From NCBI GenBank assembly GCA_033717875.1, contig JADDKJ010000002.1:67280-131279 (forward strand): a DNA stretch of 64,000 nucleotides, given 5' to 3'. The translations under genes were made by a program, and so were the position numbers. Position 1 is the stretch's first letter, and each line of letters begins with the position of its first letter. The notes beneath the pieces are model-generated. The model did no database searches, was not told where the DNA came from, and worked only from the letters and a program-made list of their open reading frames with translations. This DNA comes from Gammaproteobacteria bacterium. Lineage in GTDB: Bacteria; Pseudomonadota; Gammaproteobacteria; Ga0077554; Ga007554. Positions 42,621-57,667 of this stretch are shown piece after piece.

Positions 42621-42657
42621 GGTGCGCCGTGCGCACCCGACAGGCCCGTTCCCCGGA

Positions 42658-43413: not shown

Positions 43414-44412
43414 ATGCATATGCGCAAGGCAATCAAAATCATCAGCTCTGCCGGTTCCGCCGCGCTCCTTCTTGCGGGAACGGCGATGGCCGCCCCGCCG
43501 ACGGGAGTAAGCTTCGACAATTGGGAAATCAGTGGCGGTAATGTCGATCTCATCGGCGCTGGCACTGGCAGCCCCTGCCCCGCCGGCTACACCTGCCAGG
43601 AACTCGCCAAGGGCACGGGCTTCCTGCAACAACAGATCACGGAAACCGCATCAGGCAAGAAATACTTCTGGACGGTGATCTCCGAAGGCGCCGACGGCGC
43701 CGCGAACCTGGCGGGCAGACCATTCGCCAGCGAGGATTTCGTTCAACTGGGAACGGGTGGCAGCAGCACACCTGGCCTGTACGCCAATCAGAGGATATCG
43801 GACGGCGCCGTTTCCCCCATCGGCACCGCCCAAGCCGCCGTGACCAATGGATTTTCGACCTCCACCCAGATCTCCACCGGATGGGCCGTCAATAACGTCG
43901 CCAACAGCACCGAAACGGTCATCAATCTTAATGTGTCCGATGCCGGCGTGGCCGCCGCCAACGACGAGTTCCTGTCGGCCTTCAATGTCAGCAGCGCCAC
44001 CCCCGCCGGCGGCGGCGCCAATGTGGTCAGCGCCCTGACCATCGACCAGGTGGCCTGGATCGGCGACACCACCGCCGCCGCGGCGCCCAGTGACAGACAG
44101 TACTTCTACACCAAGCTGGTCGCCTCCACCGCCGCTTCGCCCGTGGGCGGATTCACCTTTACACCGGGCGGCGCGAGCGCCGTAACGGTGCAAGGAACAC
44201 CGATCGATTGGGCTTTGGGCGACAAGATCCAGGTCGTCTGGGTAGGCCAGACCATCGGCGGCCTGGGCAGCTTCGGCGCCGAGAACCTGACCCAGGTAAC
44301 CGGAACGACTTTGGGAACGGTCAGCTCGTCCTCGACCACCGCCACAGGCCCCTGGGATTGGGCCGCCGGCGGAACATTGGCCACGCAATTTGGAACCGCG
44401 CCGACGTTCTGA
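43414..44412 (+). CDS. Secreted Gly/Ala/Thr-rich hypothetical protein
   Basis: Signal peptide 'MRKAIKIISSAGSAALLLAGTAMAAP' with SD 'gaggag' upstream. No family was recognised. Confidence 0.45.
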   Translation: MHMRKAIKIISSAGSAALLLAGTAMAAPPTGVSFDNWEISGGNVDLIGAGTGSPCPAGYTCQELAKGTGFLQQQITETASGKKYFWTVISEGADGAANLAGRPFASEDFVQLGTGGSSTPGLYANQRISDGAVSPIGTAQAAVTNGFSTSTQISTGWAVNNVANSTETVINLNVSDAGVAAANDEFLSAFNVSSATPAGGGANVVSALTIDQVAWIGDTTAAAAPSDRQYFYTKLVASTAASPVGGFTFTPGGASAVTVQGTPIDWALGDKIQVVWVGQTIGGLGSFGAENLTQVTGTTLGTVSSSSTTATGPWDWAAGGTLATQFGTAPTF

Positions 44413-44587: not shown

Positions 44588-45547
44588 TTACCCGCCATAA
44601 AACGTTTTCTCTCCAGCCGGTCGCGTCTTGAAACGACGATGCACCCATAGATACTGTTCGGGAATACGGCGAATCTGTTCTTCGAAGAGGGCGTTGATGC
44701 GGGCGGCGTCGTGGCCGGCATCTTCGCTGGGGAAATTTTCCAGGGCGGGGGCAAGGGCGATGCGGTAACCCGCATCGCCCGGCAGCCGCTCGGGAAATAC
44801 CGGGATGACCGGCGCGCCGCTCAGCCGCGACAGCTCGGCGGTCGCGGTCATGGTGGCAGCGGGGATGCCGAAAAAGGGGACAAACGTGCTGTGCTTGCCT
44901 GCATAATTCTGATCGGGCGAGTACCACACCGGCTTGTTGTCCTTGAGCACACGCAGCATGGCGCGGATGTTGCCATGGGGTATCACGGGCGCGTGCCGCT
45001 GCCGGGCGCGGCGCATGACTTCGTCGAAAAGCGGATTCTTGTGCGGGCGGTAGGTCGCGCGCAGCGGTATGTGCATGGATAGCAACGTCGTGCCGATCTC
45101 CACGGTGGTGAAGTGGGCCATCAGCAGGATCGCGCCCCGGCCTTTCTTCAGCGCCTCGTCCAGGTGTTCGAGTCCTTCCATTCTTGCCAAGCCGCGCAGC
45201 CGGGCAGGAGGGGTCCACCAGCACAGCATGGTCTCCATGAGACTCATGCCCAGCGACTGGAAATGTCTTTTCAGCAAATAGCGGCGCTGCGGCTCGGTCA
45301 GATCTGGAAAGCACAACGCGAGATTGACCGTGGCGACGCGCCGCCGGTGCCCCGGCAGGATTCCGAGAACATGCCCCAGCACGCGGCCGATACGCATCAG
45401 CCAGGCATAGGGCAAGCGGGCGATGCACCACGAGGCGCCTATTCCGGCCCAGGTTGGCCAATAGCGGGGGGAGATGAAACGGCTGAGGAGCGCTGAAGTA
45501 TCGGTCACAATGGTTGAAGCTTGTCTATAGCCGGCACATTCTACCAC
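44588..45547 (-). CDS. Lipid A biosynthesis lauroyl/myristoyl acyltransferase family protein (LpxL/HtrB-like); start uncertain
   Basis: 'LMAHFTTVEIG' (HX4E acyltransferase motif) and the overall LpxL-like pattern. Confidence 0.65.
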   Translation of the reverse strand: MVECAGYRQASTIVTDTSALLSRFISPRYWPTWAGIGASWCIARLPYAWLMRIGRVLGHVLGILPGHRRRVATVNLALCFPDLTEPQRRYLLKRHFQSLGMSLMETMLCWWTPPARLRGLARMEGLEHLDEALKKGRGAILLMAHFTTVEIGTTLLSMHIPLRATYRPHKNPLFDEVMRRARQRHAPVIPHGNIRAMLRVLKDNKPVWYSPDQNYAGKHSTFVPFFGIPAATMTATAELSRLSGAPVIPVFPERLPGDAGYRIALAPALENFPSEDAGHDAARINALFEEQIRRIPEQYLWVHRRFKTRPAGEKTFYGG

Positions 45548-46185
45548 GCAGGCGGCAGTTTCTCGTTGACCGTGATGGTTTTACCCTCGATATGAATGTA
45601 TCCACCCGTCACCAGATCACGCAGAATGCGCCCCACCATCTCGCGCGAAGCGCCGACGCGGTTGGCGATCTCCTGATGGGTGATCCCGCTTTCAATGACC
45701 ATCTTGCCCTCGCGCGGCTGGGCGAGACTCAGCAACAGCTTGGCCACGCGGCCATAGACATCCATCAGCGCCAGGCTTTTCACGTTGTCGGTGAGCAGAC
45801 GCAGCCGCCGGCACAGGCCCTTGATCAAGACCAGGGCGACATCCGGGTGATCGGCCAGATATTGCCGGAAATCGCTCTTTGAAATCACCTGGAAAGATGA
45901 TTTCTCCAAAGTCATTACCGACGCCGAACGCGGCTGGTCATCGACCAGGGCCAGCTCGCCGAAGTATTCACCCGGCCCATGGAAATTGAGAATGATCTCC
46001 TTGCCCTCCTCATCCTGGAGAAAGACCTTCACCCGTCCCTCCAGAATCACATAAAGCGAATCACTCTGATCGCCTTCGGTGATGACAATGGTATTCTTGG
46101 GAACAACCTTCCTGACGGCGCGCTCCAGCAACGGGCGCAGCGTCTCTTCGCTCAATCCTTTAAACAGAGAGATGTTTGCCAACAT
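45541..46185 (-). CDS. crp: Crp/Vfr-like cAMP receptor transcriptional regulator
   Basis: cNMP-binding 'YFGELALVDDQPRSASV' and DNA-recognition helix 'REMVGRILRDL', close to CRP 'RETVGRILKML'. It lacks the FNR N-terminal Cys cluster. Confidence 0.75.
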   Translation of the reverse strand: MLANISLFKGLSEETLRPLLERAVRKVVPKNTIVITEGDQSDSLYVILEGRVKVFLQDEEGKEIILNFHGPGEYFGELALVDDQPRSASVMTLEKSSFQVISKSDFRQYLADHPDVALVLIKGLCRRLRLLTDNVKSLALMDVYGRVAKLLLSLAQPREGKMVIESGITHQEIANRVGASREMVGRILRDLVTGGYIHIEGKTITVNEKLPPAW

Positions 46186-46282
46186 GGGCGATCACCAGAG
46201 CATGAATCAGAAGACATACATTTTATCCCGGCCGGCTTTTAATTACACTCATGGACATCGCGACGGGATTTCGTAGCACACC

Positions 46283-48529
46283 ATGAAAACGAGGCGACTG
46301 GCCAAAGCCGGAATACTGGGCATGCTGACAGCCACGTTGGGCGTGGCGATCAGCCTGACACCCTTCGGCGCGATGCTGGAAGAGAACATTGGCCTGGACG
46401 CCCTGTTTGCCTGGCGCGGCGCCGCCACACCACCCGCCGAGATGGTAGTAATCACCATCGACAAAGCTTCCTCCGACCAGTTCGGATTGCCCAATAATCC
46501 GGCCAAGTGGCCGCGCGCGCATCACGCCCGCCTCATCGACAACCTAGCCGGGCAGGGCGCGCGCGTCGTCGCCTTCGACATCCTGTTCGCTGAACCGCGC
46601 GAAGCCGCGGGCGACCAGGCCCTCGCCAGAGCCATGGGCGCGGCGCGCAACGTGGTATTGGTCGAAGCGCTCAAAAGCGAGGCGGTCACGACAGGCGGCA
46701 CGTCCATTCGCAACGGCGGCGATGCCGCACTGGAACGGCTCGTTCCTTCGTTGCCGCTGTTCACCGACAACGCGCTGGCCAGCGCGCCTTTCCCCCTGCC
46801 CAAGGTGCCCGTCAGAGTCAGCCGCTTCTGGACCTTCAAGGCAGGCGCGGGAGAAACGCCGACATTACCGGCCGTCGCCTTGCAGCTTTATGCGCTGCCC
46901 GTGTATGACGCATTCCACGCCCTCATCGCGCGCGCCGCCCCCTCCCACGCCGCGCGCCTGCCGTCGGATCAGGCGGAGGCCTTGCGCACCGGCGTCGTAC
47001 CTCTCGCCCAGACGCTGCGCGCCCTATTCACCCGCGACCCATCGCTGGCGGAAGAGATGCGCCAGATACTGGACAGCCAGCGTCATCCCCAAGCAAACCT
47101 GCTGCGCGCACTGATCAACCTTTATTCCGGCGTTGATTATCCTTACCTGAACTTCTATGGCCCGCCCCATACCATCTCCACCCTGTCTTATCACGAGGCA
47201 TTACAACTAGCGGAACAGCCCCGGCCGCATTTCAAGGACAAGGTGGTTTTCGTCGGCTTTTCAGAACACCTGCAACCGGAACAGAAAGACGGTTTTTATA
47301 CCGTATTCTCACAAGAAGACAACGGTCTCGATGTCAGCGGCGTGGAAATCGCCGCCACAGCCTTCGCCAATCTTCTGGAAACCCGGCCGGTGCGGCCTGC
47401 CAGTCCCATGCTATATCTCGCCATTCTGCTGGGTTGGGGCTTGCTACTCGGCGTAGGGTGCCGGCTGCTTCCGATTGCCATCGCCCTTTCCGGCAGCGCG
47501 GTTTCGATCATCGCTTATGCCGCGTTCGCCGCTCATCAATTCGAAACAACGGCGCTGTGGCTGCCGCTGGTCATTCCGCTTTTGATCCAGGCGCCGTTCG
47601 CGCTGGCCGGCGCGACATTATGGCGTTATATCGACACCCATCGGGAACGGCGCGTCATCCACACCGCATTCGGCCATTACCTTCCCTCCACCGTCGTCGA
47701 TGAAATCGCCAAGGGCACAGGCAACATCGCGCCCGAAGGGCGTTTGGTGCATGGCGTATGCCTCTGCACCGATGCGGCGCAATACACCACGCTTGCGGAA
47801 ATGCTCGACCCCGCGCGCCTGCAAACCCTGATGAACGACTATTACAAGACGATTTTCACGCCGGTGCGCGAACATGGCGGCATCATTTCCGACGTTGTCG
47901 GCGATGCCATGCTGGCGCTCTGGACCGATCCCGCCGCCAACATCGAATCGCGGCGGCAAGCTTGCCGGGCGGCGCTGGATCTTGCGCAAGCCACCGACCG
48001 GTTCAACAACGATTTGGGCCATCCGCCACTGCCCACGCGCATCGGTTTGCACAGCGGCGACGTCATGCTGGGCAACATTGGCGCGGTGGATCACTTCGAA
48101 TACCGCGCGGTGGGCGACATCGTGAACACCGCCACACGCATCCAGACGCTCAACAAGCAGATTGGAACAAAAATATTAGTATCGAACGATATTCTTAAAG
48201 ATATCGACGCATTTTTAGTGCGGAAACTGGGAATTTTTCCCCTTGTGGGAAAATCCCAGCCCGTCGCCATTTGTGAACTGCTCTGCCGCATCGAAGACGC
48301 TACGGAATCGCAACGGCAAATTTGCGGCATCTTCGACGCGGGACTCGCCGCCTTCAGGGAGCAGCGCTGGCGCGAGGCAGCGGAGAGCTTCAGCGCTGTG
48401 CTACGCCTCGATGAACAGGATGGTCCCGCGCGCTTCTATCTCGCACTGTGCGACCGCGATCGTCACCGCCGCCGCTCCGATCCCATGCACGGCATTTTTC
48501 CCGCCGATATTTCAGAAAAAAGCGATTGA
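46283..48529 (+). CDS. CHASE2 sensor fused to a class III adenylate/guanylate cyclase (CyaB-like)
   Basis: N-terminal TM, a periplasmic CHASE2 region, three or four TM helices, then the cyclase catalytic domain 'LCTDAAQYTTLAEML...GDAMLALW...IGLHSGDVMLGNIGA'. Confidence 0.85.
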   Translation: MKTRRLAKAGILGMLTATLGVAISLTPFGAMLEENIGLDALFAWRGAATPPAEMVVITIDKASSDQFGLPNNPAKWPRAHHARLIDNLAGQGARVVAFDILFAEPREAAGDQALARAMGAARNVVLVEALKSEAVTTGGTSIRNGGDAALERLVPSLPLFTDNALASAPFPLPKVPVRVSRFWTFKAGAGETPTLPAVALQLYALPVYDAFHALIARAAPSHAARLPSDQAEALRTGVVPLAQTLRALFTRDPSLAEEMRQILDSQRHPQANLLRALINLYSGVDYPYLNFYGPPHTISTLSYHEALQLAEQPRPHFKDKVVFVGFSEHLQPEQKDGFYTVFSQEDNGLDVSGVEIAATAFANLLETRPVRPASPMLYLAILLGWGLLLGVGCRLLPIAIALSGSAVSIIAYAAFAAHQFETTALWLPLVIPLLIQAPFALAGATLWRYIDTHRERRVIHTAFGHYLPSTVVDEIAKGTGNIAPEGRLVHGVCLCTDAAQYTTLAEMLDPARLQTLMNDYYKTIFTPVREHGGIISDVVGDAMLALWTDPAANIESRRQACRAALDLAQATDRFNNDLGHPPLPTRIGLHSGDVMLGNIGAVDHFEYRAVGDIVNTATRIQTLNKQIGTKILVSNDILKDIDAFLVRKLGIFPLVGKSQPVAICELLCRIEDATESQRQICGIFDAGLAAFREQRWREAAESFSAVLRLDEQDGPARFYLALCDRDRHRRRSDPMHGIFPADISEKSD

Positions 48530-48605
48530 CAAAAGTTTATTTTATGTAACACACTCCGCGCTCAAGTAAAAAAACGACAAACAACAGCAGGGATGAAGAA
48601 AACGA

Positions 48606-51600
48606 ATGCAACAAGCTGTCGCGCGGAAAAACAAGCAGCGCCTGATACTGCCCGTGGCATTTCTGGCGATGATCTCGCCCACCCCCGGTCACACCGCACC
48701 GGATGAGTGCGCGGATTGGGTGGCGAGGGCCGTATCAATGGAAGGAAACGTGGAGGGACACAGCGGCATGGATCCCGTCTGGCAGCCCGTCAGACCCAAT
48801 CAAGTTTTCTGCCCCGGCAGCGCCATACGTACCGGGCCGCGCAGCCGCGCCGCCCTGCTACTGCGCAACCAGAGCGTGCTGCGCATCGACCAGCGTTCCG
48901 CCATCACCTTCCCCGCCGCCGAGAGCGAAACACCCTTCTGGCTCAGAATGCTCAACGGCGCGGTGAACGTCATCACCCGCACACCGAAAAAATTCCAGAT
49001 CGACACTCCTTTCGTCAATGCCGCGGTGGACGGCACGGAATTCCTCGTCGCCACCACGGAAAACGAAGCCACCGTCTCGGTATTCGAGGGTCAGGTCAGC
49101 GCCACCAACCCCCAAGGACAACGGGTGCTGAAAAGCGGCGAATCGGCCAGCGCCAGCCCCGGCCAGGCGCCCGTCCCGCACATCCTCGCTCGTCCGCGCG
49201 ACGCCGTGCAGTGGGCGCTCTATTACCCGCCGGTGCTGACATTCCGCCGCGAAGATTTCCGCGAAGGCGATGAAAACGCCTGGCAAGGGCGCGTGCGCCG
49301 ATCCATCGCCGCTTATCGGGAGAGCCGCCTGTCCGATGCGCTGGAGATCATCGCCCAGACGCCGCAAGACAACCCCGGCGCATCCTTCTTCACCTGGCGC
49401 GCCGCATTACTGCTCGAAACCGGGCGCAGCGACGAGGCCGGCACCGATCTTCAGACCGCCCTCGGTCTCGACCCGAACCACGGACCCGCTTATGCCCAGC
49501 AAGCGATCATCGCCGTCACGCAGAACCGGCGCAATGAAGCGCTCGAACAAGCAAGACGCGCCACCACTCTGACACCGCAAAACGCCGCTTCCTGGATCGC
49601 CCTCTCCTACGCCGAACAGGCCAGCTTCAACCTCCAGGCCGCGCTCGACGCTGCACAGCAAGCCATTGAGAAAGAACCCGGCAACGCCCTGGCCTGGGCG
49701 CGGCTCGCCGAACTGCGGTTGTCACTGGCCGACTTGGACGGCGCGCTGGCCGCCGCCGAAAAAGCCGCGGCGCTCGACCCGAACCTGGCCCGCACCCACA
49801 GCGTGCTCGGCTTCGTCCGGCTCGCCCAGATCAATACCCGCGACGCACGCCTATCGTTCGAACACGCCATCGCCCTCGTCCCCTCCGACCCCCTCCCCCG
49901 CCTCGGCCTGGGCCTCGCCAAAATCCGCAACGGCGAACTCGCCGCCGGCCGCGAAGACATCGAAATCGCCACCGCCCTTGACCCCAACAACGCGCTGGTG
50001 CGCAGCTACATGGGCAAGGCCTATTACGAAGAAAAACGCGCCAGCCTGGCGGCAAGCCAATTCGACATCGCCAAGGCGCTCGACCCCAATGATCCTACGC
50101 CGTGGTTCTATGACGCCATTCTCAAGCAGAGCGTCAACCGGCCTGTCGAGGCATTGCAGGATTTGCAAAAATCCATCGAGTTGAATGACAACCGCGCGGT
50201 TTACCGTTCACGCCTACTGCTCGATAGCGACGCAGCCGCACGTAGCGCCAGCCAAGCACGGATATACAGTGACCTTGGTTTTCAACAACTGGCCATGGTC
50301 GAGGGCTGGAAATCTCTCAACACCGACCCCGCCAACCACTCTGCGCACAGGTTCCTCGCCGACTCCTATGCCGGCATACCACGCCACGAAATCGCCCGTG
50401 TCAGCGAGCTGCTGCAAGCGCAACTGCTGCAACCGCTCAACATCAACCCGATTCAGCCCCAGTTGGCGGAGAGCAATCTTGGAATACTGGATGGAGCGGG
50501 GCCATCGCGAGCAGGGTTTAATGAATTTAACCCGCTTTTTGCACGTGACCGGGTTGGGTTCCAGGTAAATGGGATAGGGGGCGGAAATAACACGCTAGGA
50601 AATGATCTCGTCATTTCAGGAACGCAGGGAAAACTATCCTACAGCATAGGGCAGTTCCACTACCAGACAGATGGATTCCGGAAAAACAACGATATCAAGC
50701 AAGACCTCTACACCCTGTTTGTACAGGGCGCCTTGTCCCATAAAACCAGCGTACAGGCCGAATTCAGGTCATCGGACAGAGAGAACGGCGACTTGGCTCT
50801 GCGCTTTTCTCCGGATAACTTTTCAGCAGCGCTACGGGAGAATACCAATACCGAGACATCAAGACTCGGATTCCGTCATGCTTTCTCACCATCGTCGGAT
50901 TTGATCGGGTCAATCATTTTCCAGAATTCCGATTCAGACAATCATGATACAAATCCATTCCTGTCCATCACTTCCGCCAGAAAGGATCAGGGTTATATCG
51001 GTGAAATACAGCACCTGTTCCGTTCGATGCGATTCAATCTTGTCAGCGGCATCGGGCATTACTCCCTGGAAAGAAAAACGGTGATCACAACGGACTTTGG
51101 CATACCTTTCATTCCCAAAGCGACGTCATCCAAGACAGGTGATGTCGAGAGAGGCAATGCTTATTTCTATTCACGGACAAATGTCTTGGAAAATATGACA
51201 TTTGCGCTAGGCATAAGCGCCGACAAATATCAGGGAACATTTATGGATAAAAACCAGATAAATCCCAAACTCGGACTGATCTGGAATATCTCGCCGGCGA
51301 CCACTGTGCGTGCCGCTGCTTTCAGAGTCCTGAAAAGAGACCTGATCACCAACCAAACCCTTGAACCAACACAAGTCGCCGGCTTTAATCAATTTTTTGA
51401 TGATATTAACGGCACGGATTCCAAACGCTACGGCGTAGCCCTCGACCAACAGTTAACACACTCTTCATATAGTGGGATAGAGCTTTCCAGGAGGGATATG
51501 AGCGTCCCTTACAACAACCCCTTTTCAGGAGAAACTCTCACTGCGAAATGGAAAGAGAACATTGGCCGCTTTTATTTATATTGGTCGCCACAGCCCTGGC

Positions 51601-51989
51601 TTTCCAGCAGTATGGAATATAACTTTGAACGGATCGAAAGAGATGCGAATTTTACAACGGGAAATTTATTGGACCTAAAGACACACAAGCTGCCTTTGGC
51701 CATCAATCTGTTTTCCCCATCCGGGCTCACTATGCAATTCAAGGCAACCTACTTCAATCAAGCGGGGGATTTTTTTGATCCCGCATCCTCACTCGTCACA
51801 TACGGGAGCGATCAATTCTGGCTTGCGAACTTCAATGCAAGCTATCGGCTACCCAAGCGTTATGGAATCATTTCGGCAGGAGTCAACAATTTATTCAACA
51901 AACGATTCAGCTTTCAGGATACCGATCCGGCGACCCCACGCGTGAGTCCGCAACGATTGATCTTTCTCAAGTTCACACTCACGTTTTAG
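48606..51989 (+). CDS. Secreted FecR-domain / TPR-repeat protein with a ~450-aa C-terminal beta-barrel-like domain (outer-membrane type)
   Basis: A signal peptide is followed by a FecR block 'LRIDQRSAITFP...VDGTEFLVAT', then at least 8 TPR-like repeats. A C-terminal region rich in alternating aromatic/Gly strands ends 'LIFLKFTLTF' (terminal Phe). Confidence 0.7.
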   Translation: MQQAVARKNKQRLILPVAFLAMISPTPGHTAPDECADWVARAVSMEGNVEGHSGMDPVWQPVRPNQVFCPGSAIRTGPRSRAALLLRNQSVLRIDQRSAITFPAAESETPFWLRMLNGAVNVITRTPKKFQIDTPFVNAAVDGTEFLVATTENEATVSVFEGQVSATNPQGQRVLKSGESASASPGQAPVPHILARPRDAVQWALYYPPVLTFRREDFREGDENAWQGRVRRSIAAYRESRLSDALEIIAQTPQDNPGASFFTWRAALLLETGRSDEAGTDLQTALGLDPNHGPAYAQQAIIAVTQNRRNEALEQARRATTLTPQNAASWIALSYAEQASFNLQAALDAAQQAIEKEPGNALAWARLAELRLSLADLDGALAAAEKAAALDPNLARTHSVLGFVRLAQINTRDARLSFEHAIALVPSDPLPRLGLGLAKIRNGELAAGREDIEIATALDPNNALVRSYMGKAYYEEKRASLAASQFDIAKALDPNDPTPWFYDAILKQSVNRPVEALQDLQKSIELNDNRAVYRSRLLLDSDAAARSASQARIYSDLGFQQLAMVEGWKSLNTDPANHSAHRFLADSYAGIPRHEIARVSELLQAQLLQPLNINPIQPQLAESNLGILDGAGPSRAGFNEFNPLFARDRVGFQVNGIGGGNNTLGNDLVISGTQGKLSYSIGQFHYQTDGFRKNNDIKQDLYTLFVQGALSHKTSVQAEFRSSDRENGDLALRFSPDNFSAALRENTNTETSRLGFRHAFSPSSDLIGSIIFQNSDSDNHDTNPFLSITSARKDQGYIGEIQHLFRSMRFNLVSGIGHYSLERKTVITTDFGIPFIPKATSSKTGDVERGNAYFYSRTNVLENMTFALGISADKYQGTFMDKNQINPKLGLIWNISPATTVRAAAFRVLKRDLITNQTLEPTQVAGFNQFFDDINGTDSKRYGVALDQQLTHSSYSGIELSRRDMSVPYNNPFSGETLTAKWKENIGRFYLYWSPQPWLSSSMEYNFERIERDANFTTGNLLDLKTHKLPLAINLFSPSGLTMQFKATYFNQAGDFFDPASSLVTYGSDQFWLANFNASYRLPKRYGIISAGVNNLFNKRFSFQDTDPATPRVSPQRLIFLKFTLTF

Positions 51990-52037
51990 GTTTTCAGACA
52001 GCCCCCGAGTCAACCAGCCGCAAATGGAGACACCACA

Positions 52038-52385
52038 ATGATGAAGAACGCCAAAAACACCGCCTTTTCACTTGCCCTGAGCCTGGCGATTCTACCGCTG
52101 GGCGCATGCGCGGTCATGAAAGACAAAAAAGACGGGGACGACACGGGCAAAGAACCATCAACGTCGTCCCTGCTACCTTTCAGTATTGTTTTCGACACCA
52201 AAGGTAATCCGTTTGTTCAGGACGAAAAAGGAAGGCTGATTTCCCCTGAACAAGTCAAATTCCCAATAAAAGACGTAAAAGAAATCGAAAATCTTCATGC
52301 CATTTCTGTCATGGGTGTTATTGGCTCACACTATTACATCGTAATAATCGGCGGTAATGCTTATAAGATAATGTTGCCGCACTGA
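52038..52385 (+). CDS. Small lipoprotein, hypothetical
   Basis: Lipobox 'ILPLGAC' after an n-region 'MMKNAKNTAFSLALSLA'. Total length 115 aa. Confidence 0.6.
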   Translation: MMKNAKNTAFSLALSLAILPLGACAVMKDKKDGDDTGKEPSTSSLLPFSIVFDTKGNPFVQDEKGRLISPEQVKFPIKDVKEIENLHAISVMGVIGSHYYIVIIGGNAYKIMLPH

Positions 52386-52446
52386 ACCGGAAATCTGCGA
52401 GACAGCTGCACAGAAATAAAGGGCGGGTTAGCATTTTATGCGAACC

Positions 52447-52547
52447 CGCCAAGCGTGCGAAGCACACAACTCGTTTCAAAGGAGTGCCGTTGGCACGGCT
52501 GGCGGGTGACGGTGCTGGAAAGATCGCCTAACCCACCCTCCATATTT
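52447..52547 (+). repeat. REP-3 / MITE-like element, copy 2
   Basis: It aligns over about 100 bp with 35531-35634. Confidence 0.6.
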
Positions 52548-54717
52548 TCTCCACCCCCCTCCCAGTCGCAGGTGACGGCTCAACACCCAATAACGCCGAA
52601 AACATCGTGCGGCAGCGCTGATACACTCCCAGCGCTTCGACGCGGCGGCCCTGCTGCTGGTAGCAGGCGATGAGGCGCTGATATAGCAGTTCCGCCAGCG
52701 GATCGGTCTCCAGCCCCTTGCGGTAGCAAGTGATGGCCTGTTCCCAGGCTCCGGCATGCTCGAACTGTCTGCCGAGCTGCTCGACATGACGCAGAAATTT
52801 GCTGCGCAGGCGTTCGCGCAACGGCAGAATCCATGGCTCCCCGGACTCCTTGGCGAGAAAATGTCCCTGATAGAGATCCAGGAACTTTTCGGCGTGGGAG
52901 GTTGAATCCATGTCTTGTGCTTTGCCGGCCAGCCGCTCGAACGCCCAGACATCCACCCAGCAGCGGGACGCATCCAGCGTGATGCAGCCATCGCGCACGA
53001 TGACGGCCTTTTCATCGCCGAGGAACTGGCGCAGACGGTGGAGGGTGGTGCGGAATGCCTGGTGTGCGGCATCACCTTCGGCATCGGGCCAGAGGGCGTC
53101 CATCAACTGGACTTCGTTCACATCGCGCCCGCCGAAAGCAATCAGCGCTTTCAACAGAGAGAGCGGCTTGCCTTGAGCGGCGCCGCGGGCGTGTAGCGTC
53201 TTGCCTTCCCTGAGCACCGAGAACCGCCCCAAGGTGTAAATCTTCACCGGCCAGGGCCAGTGGTCGCACTCCAGCGGTGGGCAGGGCGGGCGCAAACCAT
53301 ACTGGCGAATGATGTCGCGGATATATTCGACTTCGATGCCGTTATCCAGCGCCTTCTTGCACAGCACGGCCATCATGCAGGGACGCCAGCCGGGAATGAT
53401 CATATAGCCTTGCGCCCGGCTCAACGCGAAGGTCTTGCGCAGCAGGACGACGCTGCGCCCGTCGCGCTGCTGAATACAGCAGAACATCGCCTCCAGGATC
53501 AGCGCCATATATTCGAGCCAGCCGCTCTTCATGCCGCGAGCAAGATCGCGCAACTCCTTGACGTGAACGGAAGCCTCACGCCGCCCGCCATACTCGAGCA
53601 GGGCCTGGGCAAGCACGCCATGGCACAACGCCTGCTGAAAGGGTGCATCGACTTCAACCGCGGATGCCAGCGCGGCCTGTGCCTGCTCGACGGCCAGGCG
53701 GAAGTCGCCACGGCAGAGCGACTGCCAGGCTGACAGAAAGCTATGGACGGACACGTCCAGGCGGCGATCACTATCCAGCATTGCGCTCATGTTGCCAAGA
53801 AAACCGCTCGCGGCCTCGAGATTACCCGTGCTCAATGCGCCGCACACGCCTTGGGCATACAAATCGAAATCCATGCCCTGTATACCGGCGACCCGCATCG
53901 TCTCCAACCCTTGGGTCACCGCCTGCGAGCAAGCTTCAGGATCGTTGGCAAACCAGCCAAGCGCCGCCTCGCTTGCGCACCACTCGGCCTGAATCGCCAC
54001 AGAGGCTTTTTCAACGTCGGGCTTCATCGCTTCCATGATGTTACCTGCCTTCGCGAATTCACCTTTCCACACATAGTAGCGCGCCAGGCGACTTCCCAAT
54101 ACAAGCTGATGATCAAAGCCCAGGCCGCACGACAGCAACCACAACGCGCTCATCTCCCATTTCCTGGTATCTCGATGATGTGGCTGGTGGAGCGTCAGAA
54201 CACGCAGCATGGCCGCAGTGACACTGGCCTCGACTTCGTGAGAGGGAAAAGCGGGGTGAATACGCACCAGATCATCCAGAACGGCAACCCATGTCGCCAG
54301 CGGCGCATAATCCTTGCGTGCAGCCACGCAGGCATCCACGATACCGGCCCAGGACAGGAATATTCCCGAGACATCCTGCTTCCATTTGAACAGGGCGAAA
54401 GCCTCTTCCAGATCGGCGCGGCTCCGCGCAGGATCGCTGGACAGATGACACATGCCCCGCCAGTAGAGCAGCCACGGCGTTTCTGCCAAAATCGCCCGAG
54501 GAACGCGGCTCAAGCGACCCTCCAGCGTCTGGTGCCGCCCTTGGGAAATCAGCAACGGAGCCTGTTTGATGATGACCTGTGTTACCGTATCCCAGTCATT
54601 GATCGGCGAAGGCAGGGATTTGGTCTTCTCCGTAACATTGATTCTTGCAACGACAGGCGCATGCTCGACGCCCTCAAGCATGGGGCGACGGGAAATTTTG
54701 AGCAGAGGAGCATCCAT
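52528..54717 (-). CDS. Large transcriptional regulator: about 490-aa N-terminal helical region (MalT-like start, no P-loop) plus C-terminal SARP-type winged-helix and BTAD domain
   Basis: The C-terminal 'YTLGRFSVLREGKTL...GKPLSLLKALIAFGGRDVNEVQLMDALWPD...FRTTLHRLRQFLG' matches the SARP/OmpR-type wHTH. 'LYQRLIACYQQQGRRVEALGVYQRCRTMF' matches the BTAD. The N-terminus 'PLLKISRRPML' resembles the MalT N-terminus. Confidence 0.65.
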   Translation of the reverse strand: MDAPLLKISRRPMLEGVEHAPVVARINVTEKTKSLPSPINDWDTVTQVIIKQAPLLISQGRHQTLEGRLSRVPRAILAETPWLLYWRGMCHLSSDPARSRADLEEAFALFKWKQDVSGIFLSWAGIVDACVAARKDYAPLATWVAVLDDLVRIHPAFPSHEVEASVTAAMLRVLTLHQPHHRDTRKWEMSALWLLSCGLGFDHQLVLGSRLARYYVWKGEFAKAGNIMEAMKPDVEKASVAIQAEWCASEAALGWFANDPEACSQAVTQGLETMRVAGIQGMDFDLYAQGVCGALSTGNLEAASGFLGNMSAMLDSDRRLDVSVHSFLSAWQSLCRGDFRLAVEQAQAALASAVEVDAPFQQALCHGVLAQALLEYGGRREASVHVKELRDLARGMKSGWLEYMALILEAMFCCIQQRDGRSVVLLRKTFALSRAQGYMIIPGWRPCMMAVLCKKALDNGIEVEYIRDIIRQYGLRPPCPPLECDHWPWPVKIYTLGRFSVLREGKTLHARGAAQGKPLSLLKALIAFGGRDVNEVQLMDALWPDAEGDAAHQAFRTTLHRLRQFLGDEKAVIVRDGCITLDASRCWVDVWAFERLAGKAQDMDSTSHAEKFLDLYQGHFLAKESGEPWILPLRERLRSKFLRHVEQLGRQFEHAGAWEQAITCYRKGLETDPLAELLYQRLIACYQQQGRRVEALGVYQRCRTMFSALLGVEPSPATGRGVEKIWRVG

Positions 54718-54753
54718 TTTTCTGATTCCTTTGTGATCGATTCAACCTAAAAA

Positions 54754-54865
54754 CCTCAGTTGGAGCCATAGCGAGAATGACTAAGGCGCTGAAGATGGGC
54801 GATTTTCTCGCCCAGATTCGGTACATTAGGCATTCGCGGTAGGCTCCAACTGAGGTTTTTAGGTT
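54754..54865. repeat. Perfect 24-bp inverted repeat (aacctaaaaacctcagttggagcc / ggctccaactgaggtttttaggtt) flanking a 64-bp spacer
   Basis: It is visible directly in the sequence and lies 37 bp upstream of the SARP-like regulator start codon. Confidence 0.8.
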
Positions 54866-55189
54866 CAACCTTGTTCGGGACAGAGACCACTCACCCGATT
54901 CTCTCGAACCAGGCGGACTTCATTGGCCACCGATCTTGAATAACGACATTGTCCCGCCCTTCAACAGAATCATAAAATAAGAAATTCAAGAGGGGAAAAG
55001 AAGGTAATATTGCACTTGGCGGAAGTGACTTATTGCCGGGCGGTATGGCTATGCATCACGATATCAATGGTAGCGTGCTCTGTGCGCACGCTACCATTGA
55101 CGCCTGTAGCCGAAGGTTTTTTTGAGGGGTTTTGGAAAAACGATCAGCTTGGCGAGTTACCAACCCGCCCTACATTTGATCCAAGAAAG

Positions 55190-57667
55190 TCAGCGGCGAA
55201 AGTTTGCGTCTGTTGCCCACGGCGACTCCAGAAGCCAGCGCTCGAATTCCTCGATGGGCATGGGACGACTGATGAAATAACCCTGGGCCACATCACAGTT
55301 CAGCCCCTCCAGCAAATCATAGGCGCTTTTGTCTTCAACGCCTTCCGCAACGACCCTGAGGCCGATATTGTGCGCCAGATCGATCGTGGAGCGAACGATC
55401 ACCGCGTCGCTCTCATCCACGGCCATGCCCATGACGAATGACTTGTCGATTTTCAGCTCATGGACAGGCAATTGCTTGAGATAGGCCAGCGAGGAATAAC
55501 CCGTACCGAAATCGTCGATGGACAACCCCACGCCCATCTCGCGCAAACCGCCAAGCACTGTCAGGGCGCGGGCCGGATCCGCCATCATGGCGGTTTCGGT
55601 GATTTCGAAACAGAGCCGGGACGACTGTGTGCGCATGTCCTGCAAAAGCGATGCAAGGACTTTGGGGAATTGGCTGTCCAGTAGATTGCGCGCCGACAGA
55701 TTAACGGCGATGGTCAGCGTCAAACCTGCATCGTGCCACTTCCGGCATTGTTCGACGGCTGCCCTCACCACCCACTCCGTGAGAGGATTGATCAAACCGA
55801 CTTGCTCCGCCAGGGGGATGAATCCATCGGGGAACATCAAGCCATAACGGGGATGACGCCATCTGACCAGCGCCTCGGCGCCGATCACCCGGCCGGTCGA
55901 CAGGGAAATCTTGGGCTGATAATAAAGAATGAGGTCATTGTGCTCGATAGCGGCGCGCAATTCTCCCATGAGAGAGAGATTGCGCAGGCTGTGCTGGTCC
56001 TTGGTCGGGTCGTAAATCGCATACCCCAGATTGCCGCGCTTGGCGACATACATCGCCACATCGGCGTGCCGCATCAGAGCGCCTTCGTCGCGGCCGTGAT
56101 CGGGGAACATCGCGATGCCAAAACTCGCCCCGACATGCAACGAATGCTCCTCGATAACAAACGGCTCCTCCAGAACGGCCGCGAGTTTCTGCGCAATGGC
56201 GATCGCCTGATCGAGCTCCACCGCCGGCAATACCATGGCGAACTCGTCCCCCCCCAGCCGTGCGATGGTATCCGACTCGCGCAGTGCGCCGCTCAGCCTC
56301 TGCGCCACCTGCTGCAAAATGAGATCGCCGTTCTGATGGCCGAGGGTATCGTTGATTTCCTTGAAGCGGTCAAGATCGGTCAGCACCAGGGCCAGTTGCG
56401 CTCCGTCGCGGCTGGCGCGCAGTATGGCCTGGCTGACCCGGTCCGAGAACAATGTGCGATTCGGCAAAGCAGTCAGCGCGTCGTGCAACGCTTGATACTC
56501 CAGCGCCGCCATCTGCTCTTTGCGTTCGGTGATATCACTGACAATGCCGATGAAGCGGCGCTGCCCGCCCAGCCGCATCTCGCTCACCGCGATGTCGATG
56601 GGGAACGTCGAACCATTCTTGCGTATGCCGATGACTTCACGCCGGGCGCCGATGATGCGCGCCTTGCCGGTATGCACGTAATTCTCGAGATATTCGTCGT
56701 GCATGCTCCGGTAAGGTTCGGGCATGAGCTTCTTGACGTTCTGGCCGACCAACTCGCTGGAAGCGTAACCGAACATCTTCTCGGCGGCCGGGTTAAGCGA
56801 TTCGATAACGCCATGCTCATCAATGGTGATGATGGTATCCACCACATTATCCATCACCGCCCGGATGCGGGTCTCGTAAGCCTGCAAATCATCCTGCATG
56901 CGGTTGAAAACATCCGCCACATCACCCAGCTCATCCTTGCGCAGCGCGAGCAGCCGGGCATTGCGGTCTCCCTGACCGGCCCGGACGATGGCGCTACGCA
57001 AGCTGCCGATCGGGCGCAGCACACTCATGCGCAGCGAGCTCCACAGCGCCACGCCAAGAAACATCACCAGCAGACTTCCGGCCCCCCAGAGGTAATAGCG
57101 CATTTCCCGGATGCGCGCCTCGCCGCTCTCGGTGGAAACCATCAGCTTCAAAACGCCGCGCAGGGGCTCATTTTCGTATCCATGACACGCCAGGCACTCG
57201 GTTTTCGCGGCTATCGGCGCCAGCACCGTCATTGCCTCGGCATCGCGAGCGATCACAAACTGACCCTGCAATGCTTTCTGAAAAATGTCTGGAGGGGGTG
57301 GGATGGGATCGCGGGGCAGCGTGGCCGCACGCTGGAAGCGCGGCACGTTCAGATAACGATTGACCTGCTCCACCGTGGCGAGATCGGTAAACGCCTCCCG
57401 GCCGTCGCGGCGCAATACCTCGATGTCAATGATACCGGCCGTCCCGTGCATGCGATCCAGCCACTCGCGGGCGAGGGTACCCTGGCCGTTCAGCATCAAT
57501 GTTTGCAGGCTGGCGAGCAAGGTCTTGGCGTGGGTTTGCGCCTGTTCTTTTTCCTCCTCGTAAATCGCCGCGGTCAATTGCCGTTGCAACCAGAGACCGG
57601 CGACGACCATCAGGCAAAGCAGCACGCCGGAAATAACCACCGCAAGACGAGTGCCGAGACTCCTCAT
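55190..57667 (-). CDS. Membrane sensor HAMP-PAS-GGDEF-EAL protein whose periplasmic domain carries a CXXCH heme-c motif
   Basis: TM1, then a periplasmic ~160 aa ending '...AKTECLACHGYE', TM2, HAMP, PAS 'IDEHGVIESLNPAAEKMFGY', GGDEF 'RLGGDEF', and EAL 'FEITETAMM...DDFGTGYSSLAYL'. Confidence 0.85.
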   Translation of the reverse strand: MRSLGTRLAVVISGVLLCLMVVAGLWLQRQLTAAIYEEEKEQAQTHAKTLLASLQTLMLNGQGTLAREWLDRMHGTAGIIDIEVLRRDGREAFTDLATVEQVNRYLNVPRFQRAATLPRDPIPPPPDIFQKALQGQFVIARDAEAMTVLAPIAAKTECLACHGYENEPLRGVLKLMVSTESGEARIREMRYYLWGAGSLLVMFLGVALWSSLRMSVLRPIGSLRSAIVRAGQGDRNARLLALRKDELGDVADVFNRMQDDLQAYETRIRAVMDNVVDTIITIDEHGVIESLNPAAEKMFGYASSELVGQNVKKLMPEPYRSMHDEYLENYVHTGKARIIGARREVIGIRKNGSTFPIDIAVSEMRLGGQRRFIGIVSDITERKEQMAALEYQALHDALTALPNRTLFSDRVSQAILRASRDGAQLALVLTDLDRFKEINDTLGHQNGDLILQQVAQRLSGALRESDTIARLGGDEFAMVLPAVELDQAIAIAQKLAAVLEEPFVIEEHSLHVGASFGIAMFPDHGRDEGALMRHADVAMYVAKRGNLGYAIYDPTKDQHSLRNLSLMGELRAAIEHNDLILYYQPKISLSTGRVIGAEALVRWRHPRYGLMFPDGFIPLAEQVGLINPLTEWVVRAAVEQCRKWHDAGLTLTIAVNLSARNLLDSQFPKVLASLLQDMRTQSSRLCFEITETAMMADPARALTVLGGLREMGVGLSIDDFGTGYSSLAYLKQLPVHELKIDKSFVMGMAVDESDAVIVRSTIDLAHNIGLRVVAEGVEDKSAYDLLEGLNCDVAQGYFISRPMPIEEFERWLLESPWATDANFRR

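What the first reader, a model, noticed from the sequence alone, without database searches (positions are those of the whole stretch)
45541..54717. Candidate trans-envelope signalling island: Crp | CHASE2 cyclase - FecR/TPR/beta-barrel protein - lipoprotein | SARP-like regulator
Five adjacent genes look functionally linked. A CRP-like regulator is divergent from a CHASE2 adenylate cyclase, which is followed 77 bp later, co-directionally, by a 1127-aa secreted protein (periplasmic FecR domain, TPR array, outer-membrane-type beta-barrel). Next comes a 115-aa lipoprotein, then a convergent 729-aa regulator with SARP-type DNA-binding output, preceded by a perfect 24-bp inverted repeat. FecR-like proteins are recurrent neighbours of CHASE2 receptors, but I am not aware of a version fused to an OM barrel or coupled to a SARP-like regulator. 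A plausible model is that an outer-membrane or periplasmic signal, sensed by the FecR-TPR-barrel protein with the lipoprotein, modulates CHASE2-cyclase cAMP output read by Crp.
Basis: inference. Interest (0 to 1): 0.7.

Follow-up and report, generated by a model that had tools for sequence, protein, structure and literature searches.

The report
NsrA-like outer-membrane sensor with CHASE2 cyclase
Four of the five genes form a widespread, conserved signalling module related to the one studied example (NsrA–CyaK–Clr of Sinorhizobium meliloti): an outer-membrane sensor, an inner-membrane cyclase and a Crp regulator, plus a small partner protein not mentioned in the papers I could read; the fifth gene and the inverted repeat are unrelated neighbours.

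Summary
All five ORFs and their domains are present as described. Four form a conserved module: a Crp-family regulator, divergent from a CHASE2/class III cyclase, followed by a FecR–TPR–22-strand-barrel protein and a small lipoprotein.

The large protein is homologous over its full length to S. meliloti NsrA (hhalign 99.8%). NsrA is the outer-membrane receptor that works with the CHASE2 cyclase CyaK and the Crp-like Clr. The "FecR fused to a barrel" architecture is therefore known and very common: more than 4,800 protein clusters across many phyla.

A CHASE2 gene lies near the barrel gene in 60 of 69 informative loci.

The SARP-like regulator is not part of the module. Its orthologues sit beside MoxR–DUF58(–VWA–BatD) operons.

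The "24-bp inverted repeat" is a MITE-like insertion with a 5-bp target duplication. It is absent from a 90%-identical relative.

New observations:
- The small +1 protein belongs to a position-specific family with no Pfam or PDB match.
- Among close relatives, the barrel and the small protein are replaced together as a cassette.
- The cyclase lacks the canonical ATP-specifying Lys/Asp pair, so cAMP as its product is unproven.

The parts
45541..46185 (-). Crp-family cyclic-nucleotide-binding transcription regulator (214 aa), divergent from the cyclase gene. It is the proposed reader of the cyclase product.
   Evidence: cNMP_binding E 1e-26 and HTH_Crp_2 E 3e-13. The best NCBIfam match is CRP, at 155.9 bits, below the 266-bit equivalog cut-off. 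A full-length homologue lies within 10 kb in 16 of 80 loci (about 10 of them adjacent to the cyclase–barrel pair), and next to the cyclase in L083, L090 and L092.
46186..46282 (.). 97-nt divergent intergenic region between the Crp gene and the cyclase gene.
   Evidence: Sequence read. No CRP-type TGTGA-N6-TCACA site lies here, and window-wide counts are at chance level. The promoter scan is at background.
46283..48529 (+). Inner-membrane receptor cyclase (748 aa). It has an N-terminal TM segment, a periplasmic CHASE2 domain (res ~33-390, nt 46379-47452), a TM bundle, a class III cyclase domain (res ~496-657, nt 47768-48253) and a C-terminal TPR-like motif.
   Evidence: CHASE2 E 5e-35 and Guanylate_cyc E 3e-12. 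Metal-binding Asp (D497, D541), Asn615 and Arg619 are conserved. The purine-specifying Lys is Asp537 and the second specificity position is Arg608; CyaK has Lys and Ser there. A full-length homologue lies directly upstream of the barrel gene on the same strand in 41 of 67 loci.
48606..51989 (+). NsrA-like outer-membrane sensor (1127 aa). Order of parts: signal peptide; FecR beta-sandwich (res 40-192, nt 48723-49181); TPR solenoid (res ~215-520 and beyond, nt 49248-50165); invariant linker (res 521-648, nt 50166-50549); 22-strand TonB-dependent-transporter-type barrel without a plug (res 649-1127, nt 50550-51986).
   Evidence: Pfam FecR + TPRs. Model m8a6055a96f73. Foldseek top hits are FptA, FpvA, FecA and BtuB. 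BLASTP to NsrA is collinear in FecR/TPR (E 7e-17) and in the barrel (E 1e-5). hhalign of the family profile against NsrA: 99.8%, E 9e-29, 956 columns. More than 4,800 homologues were found, the top 120 all about 1,070-1,170 aa.
52038..52385 (+). Small probable outer-membrane lipoprotein (115 aa; lipobox LPLGA|C at Cys24; mature five-strand beta domain at res ~45-115). It is a conserved +1 partner of the barrel gene.
50692..52388 (+). Exchangeable cassette: most of the barrel plus the small gene. It has low GC3 (~0.52, against 0.72-0.8 in the flanks).
   Evidence: Nucleotide similarity to L083 runs at 87% from 45000 to 50692 and then stops. Periplasmic part and cyclase group {window, L082, L083} against {L004, L002, L003}. 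Barrel and small protein group {window, L082, L004} against {L083, L002, L003}. The GC3 step falls at the same place.
52528..54717 (-). Adjacent gene, NOT part of the module: a 729-aa regulator with helical repeats and a C-terminal wHTH+BTAD (SARP-type) output.
   Evidence: BTAD E 7e-22; Trans_reg_C 18.8 bits, below cut-off. AfsR-like over res 495-720. It is 100% identical to a Gammaproteobacteria MAG protein. Most relatives are about 1,060-1,100 aa with an N-terminal STAND ATPase. Orthologues P0130, P0131, P0139 and P0134 are all divergent from MoxR–DUF58(–VWA–BatD) operons with no CHASE2 or FecR gene nearby. It is present near the barrel gene in only L036 and L066 of 80 loci.
54741..54868 (.). 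MITE-like insertion, NOT part of the module. It is a 118-nt element (54746-54863) with 22-bp terminal inverted repeats, flanked by a duplicated TTCAA. It lies 24 nt upstream of the regulator's ATG.
   Evidence: Inverted repeat found. The element folds as one long hairpin of -77 kcal/mol, z = -12. L082, the 90% relative, has the empty site with a single TTCAA.

Best explanation
The locus encodes a four-gene trans-envelope signalling module of the NsrA/CHASE2-cyclase/Crp type.

The 1127-aa protein sits in the outer membrane through a plug-less 22-strand barrel of the TonB-dependent-transporter type. Its TPR and FecR domains reach into the periplasm.

An extracellular or envelope cue acting on the barrel and its small lipoprotein partner is passed through the conserved linker, TPR and FecR domains to the periplasmic CHASE2 domain of the inner-membrane cyclase. 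The cyclase then changes synthesis of a cyclic nucleotide, which the divergently encoded Crp-family regulator reads.

Shown here: the domain architectures, full-length homology to NsrA, conserved gene adjacency, and the joint replacement of barrel and small protein.

Inferred: the direction of signal flow, a FecR–CHASE2 contact, the nucleotide made, and the role of the small protein. My best guess is that it is a barrel-associated co-receptor or gate that helps set ligand specificity.

The SARP-like regulator and the inverted repeat are neighbours by accident.
For: Architecture.

Homology to NsrA: on pSymB, the only match is a 1190-aa FecR-domain protein directly upstream of, and overlapping, cyaK. 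It has the same Pfam layout. BLASTP is collinear. hhalign gives 99.8% over 956 columns.

NsrA, CyaK/CyaD1/D2 and Clr are an experimentally established pathway in which cAMP synthesis by the CHASE2 cyclases rises on perception of a protein signal through NsrA (PMC7529298, PMC13001267, PMC10463352).

Conservation: the cyclase is directly upstream on the same strand in 41 of 67 loci. A CHASE2 gene is present in 60 of 69 loci, with either cyclase or SpoIIE output, which points to a partnership with the sensor domain. Crp is adjacent in many gammaproteobacterial and Nitrospirota loci even when the outer flanks differ.

Small protein: position-specific family, confirmed by reciprocal look-ups.

Barrel and small protein co-replaced.

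Module boundary: similarity to L004 ends at 52388.
Against: Identity to NsrA is only 22-25%, so function is extrapolated from one distant member. I could not read the primary NsrA paper.

S. meliloti has the opposite gene order and no small-protein homologue within about 8 kb of nsrA (no L001 hit).

The cyclase lacks the Lys/Asp pair that specifies ATP. The Crp differs from E. coli CRP at both adenine-contacting positions. cAMP is therefore not established.

Many family members of the small protein outside the Gammaproteobacteria lack any signal peptide. That is hard to reconcile with a uniformly outer-membrane role.

A broad co-evolution test of the small protein against the barrel was null (partial r 0.06; 474 of 2000 permutations reach it). 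The co-swap evidence therefore rests on six close relatives.

No physical interaction was tested.
Confidence: 0.7

Rival explanations
1. Five-gene island: the SARP-like regulator is a second output or input of the same pathway, and the inverted repeat is its operator.
For: The arrangement is kept in the 90%-identical relative L082. A 40%-identical homologue lies directly upstream of the CHASE2 cyclase in one Deferrimicrobium locus (L036), and a 33% homologue lies 5 kb away in L066.
Against: It is absent from 78 of 80 loci. All four orthologue contexts at 48-56% identity pair it with MoxR–DUF58(–VWA–BatD) and not with CHASE2 or FecR genes. It is convergent with the module, so it is not co-transcribed. 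Similarity to L004 stops before it. The repeat is an insertion absent from L082.
Confidence: 0.07
2. The barrel protein is a TonB-dependent uptake system, or a Fec-type iron or other nutrient signalling receptor, and the cyclase is merely a neighbour.
For: The barrel has 22 strands and its best structural matches are FptA, FpvA, FecA and BtuB. Homologues carry PF00593 hits, and some records name them 'TonB-dependent receptor'. The FecR domain is best known from FecA–FecR–FecI signalling.
Against: There is no Plug domain hit. No ECF sigma, anti-sigma transmembrane module, TonB or ExbBD gene is found among the five genes or the flanks examined. The FecR domain is fused to the outer-membrane protein rather than to an inner-membrane anti-sigma factor. 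The conserved neighbour is a CHASE2 sensor in 87% of loci.
Confidence: 0.07
3. The small protein is not a co-receptor but the signal itself, or a precursor of one: a self-made secreted or disulfide-looped peptide sensed by the barrel protein in an autocrine, quorum-like circuit.
For: Many members are 70-100 aa, lack a signal peptide and end in a conserved NP.C.W....G..WY..C hairpin with two cysteines. H/H to C/C covariation suggests a pinned C-terminal hairpin. The gene travels with the barrel, as receptor and ligand pairs do.
Against: In the window's subfamily most members have a lipobox, so they would be membrane-tethered. No processing, modification or export genes are conserved next to it. 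The mature part is predicted as a folded five-strand domain, not a short peptide.
Confidence: 0.1
4. The TPR–barrel protein is a secretion porin of the PgaA/BcsC kind (a periplasmic TPR scaffold plus an outer-membrane barrel) for a polymer, regulated by the cyclase.
For: It has the TPR-then-barrel layout. There is a weak NCBIfam hit to PgaA over the TPR part only (E 5.5e-4).
Against: The barrel is a 22-strand TonB-dependent-transporter-type barrel, not a PgaA/BcsC-type one. No synthase or glycosyltransferase genes are present in the window flanks or the related loci inspected. NsrA genetics point to signal perception (PMC7529298).
Confidence: 0.04

Closest known systems
NsrA – CyaK/CyaD1/CyaD2 – Clr pathway of Sinorhizobium meliloti (Garnerone et al. 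2018; Tian et al. 2012; Sorroche et al. 2020)
   Same: The outer-membrane protein has FecR, a TPR array and a C-terminal barrel, and is homologous over its full length. It is encoded next to a CHASE2 class III cyclase. A Crp-family regulator reads the output.
   Different: Identity is only 22-25%. Gene order is reversed (cyclase then barrel gene here; nsrA then cyaK there). Crp is adjacent here, whereas clr (SMc02175) is chromosomal, away from pSymB. A conserved small lipoprotein follows the barrel gene here and none is found near nsrA. The cyclase here lacks the ATP-specifying Lys that CyaK has. The organism is an uncultured gammaproteobacterium, not a plant symbiont, so the cue is unlikely to be the plant uL2 signal.
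Campylobacterota cAMP cluster: CHASE2 cyclase, phosphodiesterase, FecR-domain outer-membrane protein and TPR protein (PMC9239204)
   Same: A CHASE2 cyclase is clustered with a FecR-domain outer-membrane protein and TPR repeats. It was interpreted as one pathway that is horizontally mobile.
   Different: There the TPR protein is described as a separate gene and a phosphodiesterase is part of the cluster. Here FecR, TPR and barrel form one polypeptide, no phosphodiesterase is adjacent, and Crp and a small lipoprotein are.
Burkholderia 'BiofilmReg' operon / P. aeruginosa PA4035-type: LysM–FecR periplasmic protein, CHASE2 histidine kinase and a small DUF4136 protein (PMC5192318)
   Same: A secreted FecR-domain protein is paired with a CHASE2 sensor, and a small uncharacterised protein is encoded just downstream.
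   Different: The FecR protein has no barrel. The output is a histidine kinase and response regulator, not a cyclase and Crp. The small protein belongs to a different family (the window's protein has no DUF4136 hit).
FecA–FecR–FecI trans-envelope signalling
   Same: A TonB-dependent-transporter-type barrel and a FecR domain cooperate to carry a surface signal across the periplasm.
   Different: Here the FecR domain is covalently part of the outer-membrane protein, replacing the plug and signalling domain. The inner-membrane partner is a CHASE2 cyclase, not an anti-sigma factor. No ECF sigma factor and no plug are detected.
TonB-dependent transporter plus adjacent surface lipoprotein pairs (TbpA/TbpB, SusC/SusD). 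This comparison comes from my own knowledge, as an analogy only.
   Same: A 22-strand barrel has a lipoprotein encoded immediately downstream, and the two are replaced together between close relatives.
   Different: There is no sequence or fold relationship between the small protein and TbpB or SusD. The small protein is only about 90 aa when mature. Its location and any contact with the barrel are untested.

Membership tests
NsrA-type outer-membrane sensor | Secreted protein with an N-terminal FecR domain followed by a TPR array | tested here: met
   FecR E 1e-19 at res 73-164 and multiple TPR families at res 237-531. NsrA has FecR at 66-160 and TPRs at 378-587.
NsrA-type outer-membrane sensor | C-terminal outer-membrane beta-barrel (aa ~600-1200 in NsrA, PMC7529298) | tested here: met
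   The model has 22 strands at res 649-1126. It matches TonB-dependent-transporter folds. The barrel regions align with NsrA 875-1177.
NsrA-type outer-membrane sensor | Homology to NsrA along the whole length | tested here: met
   hhalign of the family profile against NsrA: probability 99.8%, E 8.9e-29, 956 aligned columns (query 62-1130, NsrA 26-1177).
NsrA-type outer-membrane sensor | Encoded next to a CHASE2 receptor cyclase | tested here: met
   76-nt gap in the window. nsrA overlaps cyaK on pSymB. 41 of 67 loci have the cyclase directly upstream, and 60 of 69 have a CHASE2 gene nearby.
NsrA-type outer-membrane sensor | Required for perception of an external signal and for the cyclic-nucleotide response | not testable with these tools
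   This needs genetics and a reporter. It has been shown only for S. meliloti (PMC7529298).
CHASE2 receptor adenylate cyclase (CyaK/CyaD type) | CHASE2 sensor domain followed by a class III cyclase domain with intact catalytic residues | tested here: met
   Pfam hits. Both metal-binding Asp, the transition-state Asn and the Arg are conserved in 46-47 of 47 sequences.
CHASE2 receptor adenylate cyclase (CyaK/CyaD type) | Canonical ATP-specifying Lys and Asp/Thr/Ser pair | tested here: not met
   Asp537 (Asp in 28 and Asn in 11 of 47 sequences) replaces the Lys that CyaK has. Arg608 occupies the second position. The nucleotide made is therefore undetermined.
CRP/Clr-type cyclic-nucleotide receptor regulator | cNMP-binding domain plus C-terminal Crp HTH, with phosphate/ribose contacts | tested here: met
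   Pfam hits.
CRP/Clr-type cyclic-nucleotide receptor regulator | Scores as a CRP equivalog and keeps the adenine contacts T127/S128 | tested here: not met
   155.9 bits against a 266-bit cut-off. T127 is Leu and S128 is Thr.
TonB-dependent transporter | 22-strand barrel | tested here: met
   Strand count. Foldseek probability 1.0 to FptA, FpvA, FecA and BtuB.
TonB-dependent transporter | N-terminal plug domain (PF07715) | tested here: not met
   No Plug hit at E <= 0.01. The position before the barrel is taken by FecR, TPR and the linker.
TonB-dependent transporter | TonB box | not tested
   No motif search was made.
FecA–FecR–FecI signalling | FecR as an inner-membrane anti-sigma factor with an adjacent ECF sigma factor | tested here: not met
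   Here the FecR domain follows a signal peptide in an outer-membrane protein. No sigma-70 r2/r4 protein is found among the five genes or the examined flanks.
SARP/AfsR regulators (for the 729-aa protein) | BTAD domain with an adjoining OmpR-type winged helix | tested here: inconclusive
   BTAD is clear (78.8 bits). Trans_reg_C scores only 18.8 bits against a 26.2-bit cut-off. The AfsR model aligns over res 495-720. The DNA-binding part is C-terminal, unlike classical SARPs.
Membership of the 729-aa regulator in this module | Co-conservation with the CHASE2 and FecR-barrel genes | tested here: not met
   2 of 80 loci. All four examined orthologues sit beside MoxR–DUF58 operons instead.
MITE (for the inverted repeat) | Terminal inverted repeats, a target-site duplication and an empty site in a relative | tested here: met
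   22-bp terminal inverted repeats and a TTCAA duplication, with a single TTCAA and no element in L082.
MITE (for the inverted repeat) | Multiple copies in the genome | tested here: not met
   There is one copy in the 64-kb window and no exact TIR match in the JGI metagenome contigs. The rest of the genome was not available.
Pycsar pyrimidine cyclase | Specific similarity to PycC beyond generic class III homology | tested here: not met
   The window cyclase scores 61 bits to PycC, but the adenylate cyclase CyaK scores 89 bits to the same model.

The most novel reading that the evidence does not exclude
The NsrA-like family is built from two parts. One is a vertically inherited transducer: linker, TPR, FecR, CHASE2 cyclase and Crp. 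The other is a horizontally exchangeable 'sensor head', made of the surface-exposed barrel and a dedicated small lipoprotein from a fold family with no known relatives. Swapping the head would re-target the pathway to new ligands, or let the cell escape phages or bacteriocins that use the barrel. In addition, the cyclase subfamily, with Asp/Arg in place of the Lys/Asp specificity pair, may make a nucleotide other than cAMP.
Probability: 0.3. Interest if true: 0.65.

Novelty: new variant of a known kind. Interest (0 to 1): 0.45.

Why it matters
CHASE2 is one of the commonest bacterial extracytoplasmic sensor domains, yet the papers I read describe its ligands as unknown (e.g. PMC5192318).

Only one NsrA-type protein has been studied, in a plant symbiont. 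This locus shows that the same outer-membrane-to-cyclase design is spread across Gammaproteobacteria, Desulfobacterota, Nitrospirota, Rokubacteria, anammox bacteria and other groups.

It also adds three testable points:
- There is a fourth, position-specific small partner protein.
- The barrel and that partner are exchanged as a unit between close relatives.
- The cyclase has a non-canonical specificity pocket.

Together these give concrete handles for asking what such systems sense and how a signal crosses the periplasm without TonB or an anti-sigma factor.

The result also corrects the annotation: many of these proteins are named "TonB-dependent receptor" or "TPR repeat protein".

Tried and rejected
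1. Pycsar lead. The cyclase matched PycC models, but CyaK matched better. This is generic homology, so I rejected it.

2. CRP operator. No CRP-type operator is present in the Crp–cyclase intergenic region, and window-wide counts are at chance level.

3. Promoter and terminator scans were at background. Rfam found nothing meaningful between 45000 and 55400.

4. Broad mirror-tree test of the small protein against the barrel or the periplasmic part over 27 loci. It was null: small-protein identities are saturated at about 21%.

6. A sequence-profile search of the large protein against the PDB returned only generic TPR proteins.

7. A metagenome scan for the MITE terminal repeat gave 0 hits.

8. 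The primary NsrA paper (PMC5952392 / 10.1128/JB.00019-18) is not held. What it already says about homologues and synteny is unknown to me.

9. A word-indexed homologue search with the small protein found only 3 close relatives. The exhaustive search was needed.

10. PgaA/BcsC-type porin and TonB-dependent uptake readings were considered and ranked low (see the rival explanations).

Full report
**Observation.**
- Pfam and NCBIfam confirm a Crp-family regulator (cNMP_binding + HTH_Crp_2).
- They confirm a CHASE2 + class III cyclase protein, and a protein with FecR and a long TPR array.
- The 115-aa protein has no family match.
- The 729-aa protein ends in a BTAD domain preceded by a weak OmpR-type winged helix.
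- The C-terminal 480 residues of the 1127-aa protein have no Pfam hit in this copy. They end in ...FTLTF and are predicted as a barrel in which I count 22 strands. The best structural matches are all TonB-dependent transporters such as FptA, FpvA, FecA and BtuB.
- The small protein has a hydrophobic N-terminus and a conserved L-x-[AG]-C motif.
- The perfect 24-bp inverted repeat exists and is not expected by chance.

The window comes from an uncultured gammaproteobacterium: the 729-aa protein is 100% identical to a protein of an NCBI Gammaproteobacteria MAG.

**The large protein is a relative of NsrA.** A homologue search shows the architecture is very common. More than 4,800 clusters matched, and the best 120 are all about 1,070-1,170 aa and more than 50% identical over the full length. 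They are named "FecR domain-containing protein", "TonB-dependent receptor" or "TPR repeat protein".

The literature holds one characterised example. In S. meliloti, the outer-membrane protein NsrA is required for perception of nodule signals, and the inner-membrane CHASE2 cyclases CyaK and CyaD1/D2 convert them into cAMP. The Crp-like Clr reads the cAMP (PMC7529298, PMC13001267, PMC10463352).

A tblastn search of plasmids found, on pSymB, a 1190-aa FecR-domain protein directly upstream of and overlapping cyaK. This gene has FecR, TPRs and a barrel that Pfam does not see. It aligns collinearly with the window protein in both the periplasmic part and the barrel. It matches the family profile at 99.8% probability over 956 columns. 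The identity is low, at 22-25%.

A similar cluster has been noted in Campylobacterota (PMC9239204). A barrel-less LysM–FecR protein pairs with a CHASE2 histidine kinase in Burkholderia (PMC5192318).

**Which genes belong together.** I fetched 80 genomic loci that encode relatives, from many phyla.

| Gene | Result |
|---|---|
| Full-length CHASE2 cyclase | Directly upstream on the same strand in 41 of 67 loci with enough upstream sequence |
| Any CHASE2-domain gene | Present in 60 of 69 informative loci |
| Full-length Crp homologue | Within 10 kb in 16 of 80 loci, about 10 of them adjacent to the pair; mostly Gammaproteobacteria and Nitrospirota |
| SARP-like regulator | 2 of 80 loci |

In a few loci the CHASE2 protein carries a SpoIIE/PP2C phosphatase output instead of a cyclase. 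That suggests the partnership is with the sensor domain. Crp stays next to the cyclase even where the outer flanks differ.

The 48-56% identical orthologues of the SARP-like regulator, in four different contig contexts, all sit divergently from a MoxR–DUF58(–VWA–BatD) operon, with no CHASE2 or FecR gene nearby. Nucleotide similarity between the window and relative L004 runs through Crp, the cyclase, the barrel gene and the small gene, and ends 3 nt after the small gene's stop. So the module has four genes, and the regulator is an accidental, convergent neighbour.

**The inverted repeat.** The 24-bp arms are the ends of a 118-nt element that folds into one long hairpin (-77 kcal/mol, z = -12). 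Aligned with the 90%-identical relative L082, the element is an insertion. It has 22-bp terminal inverted repeats and is flanked by a duplicated TTCAA that is single in L082. This is the signature of a MITE-like mobile element, not an operator. I found no other copy.

**The small protein.** This is the least expected part. Seeded with the window's 115-aa protein, jackhmmer over all 6,611 six-frame ORFs of the loci returned 27 hits. Twenty-five lie directly downstream of the barrel gene on the same strand. The other two are within 3 kb downstream. At E < 1e-3 the family is present in 22 of 74 eligible loci, and at a relaxed threshold in 29.

An exhaustive profile search of 1.84 billion representatives found 83 matches, about 65 of them small proteins. 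The two I looked up both lie in the order Crp | CHASE2 cyclase > FecR-TPR-barrel > small gene.

The family has no Pfam, NCBIfam or PADLOC model. Its mature part is confidently predicted as a five-strand beta domain. It has no significant relative among solved structures.

Members share a D..G...V.D..GKP hairpin and a C-terminal hairpin. The base of that C-terminal hairpin is either His/His (GSH...LPH, as in the window) or Cys/Cys. This covariation suggests the two positions touch.

Most members of the window's subfamily have a lipobox. Many Nitrospirota and Desulfobacterota members have no signal peptide at all, and I cannot explain that.

**Cassette exchange.** GC3 drops from 0.75-0.85 to about 0.52 within the large gene near codon 600-650. 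It stays low through the small gene, while all neighbouring genes are at 0.71-0.77.

Pairwise identity among six close relatives is incongruent between the two halves:

| Segment | Groups | Identity within groups | Identity between groups |
|---|---|---|---|
| Periplasmic part and cyclase | {window, L082, L083} vs {L004, L002, L003} | 85-92% | 60-79% |
| Barrel and small protein | {window, L082, L004} vs {L083, L002, L003} | barrel 47-92%, small protein 45-95% | barrel 39-43%, small protein 19-26% |

At the DNA level, the window and L083 are 87% identical from Crp to nt 50692 (codon ~695), after which no similarity is detectable. At least two independent replacements of a barrel-plus-small-gene cassette are needed to explain this.

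This is the best evidence that the small protein works with the barrel. It also suggests that the surface-exposed part is the variable, specificity-determining or selection-exposed part.

There are three caveats:
- The evidence rests on six metagenome-derived sequences.
- A broader mirror-tree test was null, because small-protein similarity is saturated.
- Low GC3 occurs in both cassette types, so it is not simply a mark of recent import.

**How it most likely works.** By homology and conserved context, an envelope or external cue acts on the barrel and its small partner. The signal passes through the invariant linker (residues ~580-647, the most conserved stretch of the family, but poorly modelled) and through the TPR and FecR domains to the periplasmic CHASE2 domain. 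The cyclase output is then read by Crp.

The steps of signal flow and contact are inferred, not shown.

The nucleotide is uncertain. The catalytic residues are intact, but the ATP-specifying Lys (present in CyaK) is Asp or Asn in this subfamily, and the second specificity position is Arg. The Crp differs from E. coli CRP at both adenine contacts. A resemblance to Pycsar pyrimidine cyclases proved non-specific.

The system is a distant relative of a known pathway, with an extra conserved component, modular exchange of its outer part, and an atypical cyclase pocket. It is a new variant of a known kind, of moderate interest.

Noticed in passing
window 54741-54868: A MITE-like 118-nt element with 22-bp terminal inverted repeats and a 5-bp TTCAA target duplication. 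It is inserted 24 nt upstream of the SARP-like gene's ATG and is absent from the 90% relative L082. It would put a very stable hairpin (-77 kcal/mol) in that gene's leader or promoter region.
   Followed up: yes
window 50400-52400 (codons ~600-1127 of the large gene, plus the small gene): An intragenic GC3 step from about 0.8 to about 0.52, shared by relatives L082, L083 and L004. It coincides with the recombination breakpoint, but it is present in both cassette types, so its cause (foreign pool or codon selection) is unresolved.
   Followed up: partly
window 47768-48253 (cyclase domain; Asp537, Arg608): The class III cyclase has intact catalytic residues but carries Asp/Asn and Arg where ATP-specific enzymes have Lys and Asp/Thr/Ser, and GTP-specific ones Glu and Cys. 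This is conserved across the subfamily (28+11 of 47, and 34 of 47). The product nucleotide cannot be inferred from the usual rule.
   Followed up: partly
window 52528-54717; loci L084-L088: Orthologues of the SARP-like regulator are consistently divergent from a MoxR(AAA_3)–DUF58(–DUF4381–VWA–VWA–BatD) operon, which suggests that is their real regulatory partner. The window's lineage has lost that adjacency. Most more distant relatives carry an N-terminal STAND ATPase that the 729-aa form lacks.
   Followed up: partly
L031:14304-16499, L058:7821-9965, L066:20346-22487: In some Desulfobacterota loci the CHASE2 protein near the NsrA-like gene has a SpoIIE/PP2C phosphatase output instead of a cyclase. 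A second CHASE2-cyclase subfamily with the canonical Lys lies downstream in others (for example L022, L026, L046).
   Followed up: partly
L025, L034, L035, L040, L041, L076 (+1 ORFs); L040:13737-14069; L020:9553-9843: Homologues of the small partner protein in Nitrospirota and Desulfobacterota are 70-100 aa, lack any signal peptide and carry two conserved cysteines (NP.C...C). L040 has two tandem copies, one with a signal peptide, and L020 has a second copy 3 kb away. How a family can be lipoprotein in one clade and leaderless in another is unexplained.
   Followed up: partly
window 50340-50549 (residues ~580-648 of the large protein) and residues ~914-936: The most conserved stretch of the whole family (ELLQ.QLLQP.NI.P.QPQL...NEFNPLF.R) is modelled with very low confidence, as is a conserved EPTQVAGFNQFFDD segment inside the barrel region. 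Either could be lumen-filling or gating elements that stand in for the missing plug.
   Followed up: no
window 55190-60270: Upstream of the SARP-like gene on the minus strand lies a HAMP–PAS–GGDEF–EAL protein (825 aa), followed by two Reg_prop (two-component regulator propeller) proteins. These are c-di-GMP signalling genes next to the cyclic-nucleotide module. The GGDEF–EAL gene is also present in L082.
   Followed up: no
window 41697-44412: A XerC/D-type tyrosine recombinase (307 aa) is followed by a low-GC stretch (about 0.53 at 42500-43500) containing ORFs with no Pfam match (136 aa and 361 aa). This may be a small mobile or foreign segment just upstream of the lipid A acyltransferase and Crp genes.
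   Followed up: no
search of protein representatives, P0284-P0326 (large proteins): The D..G...D..G hairpin motif of the small protein also matches repeated stretches in 18 large (370-2,100 aa) proteins. These may be YD/RHS-like repeat proteins; they were not examined.
   Followed up: no
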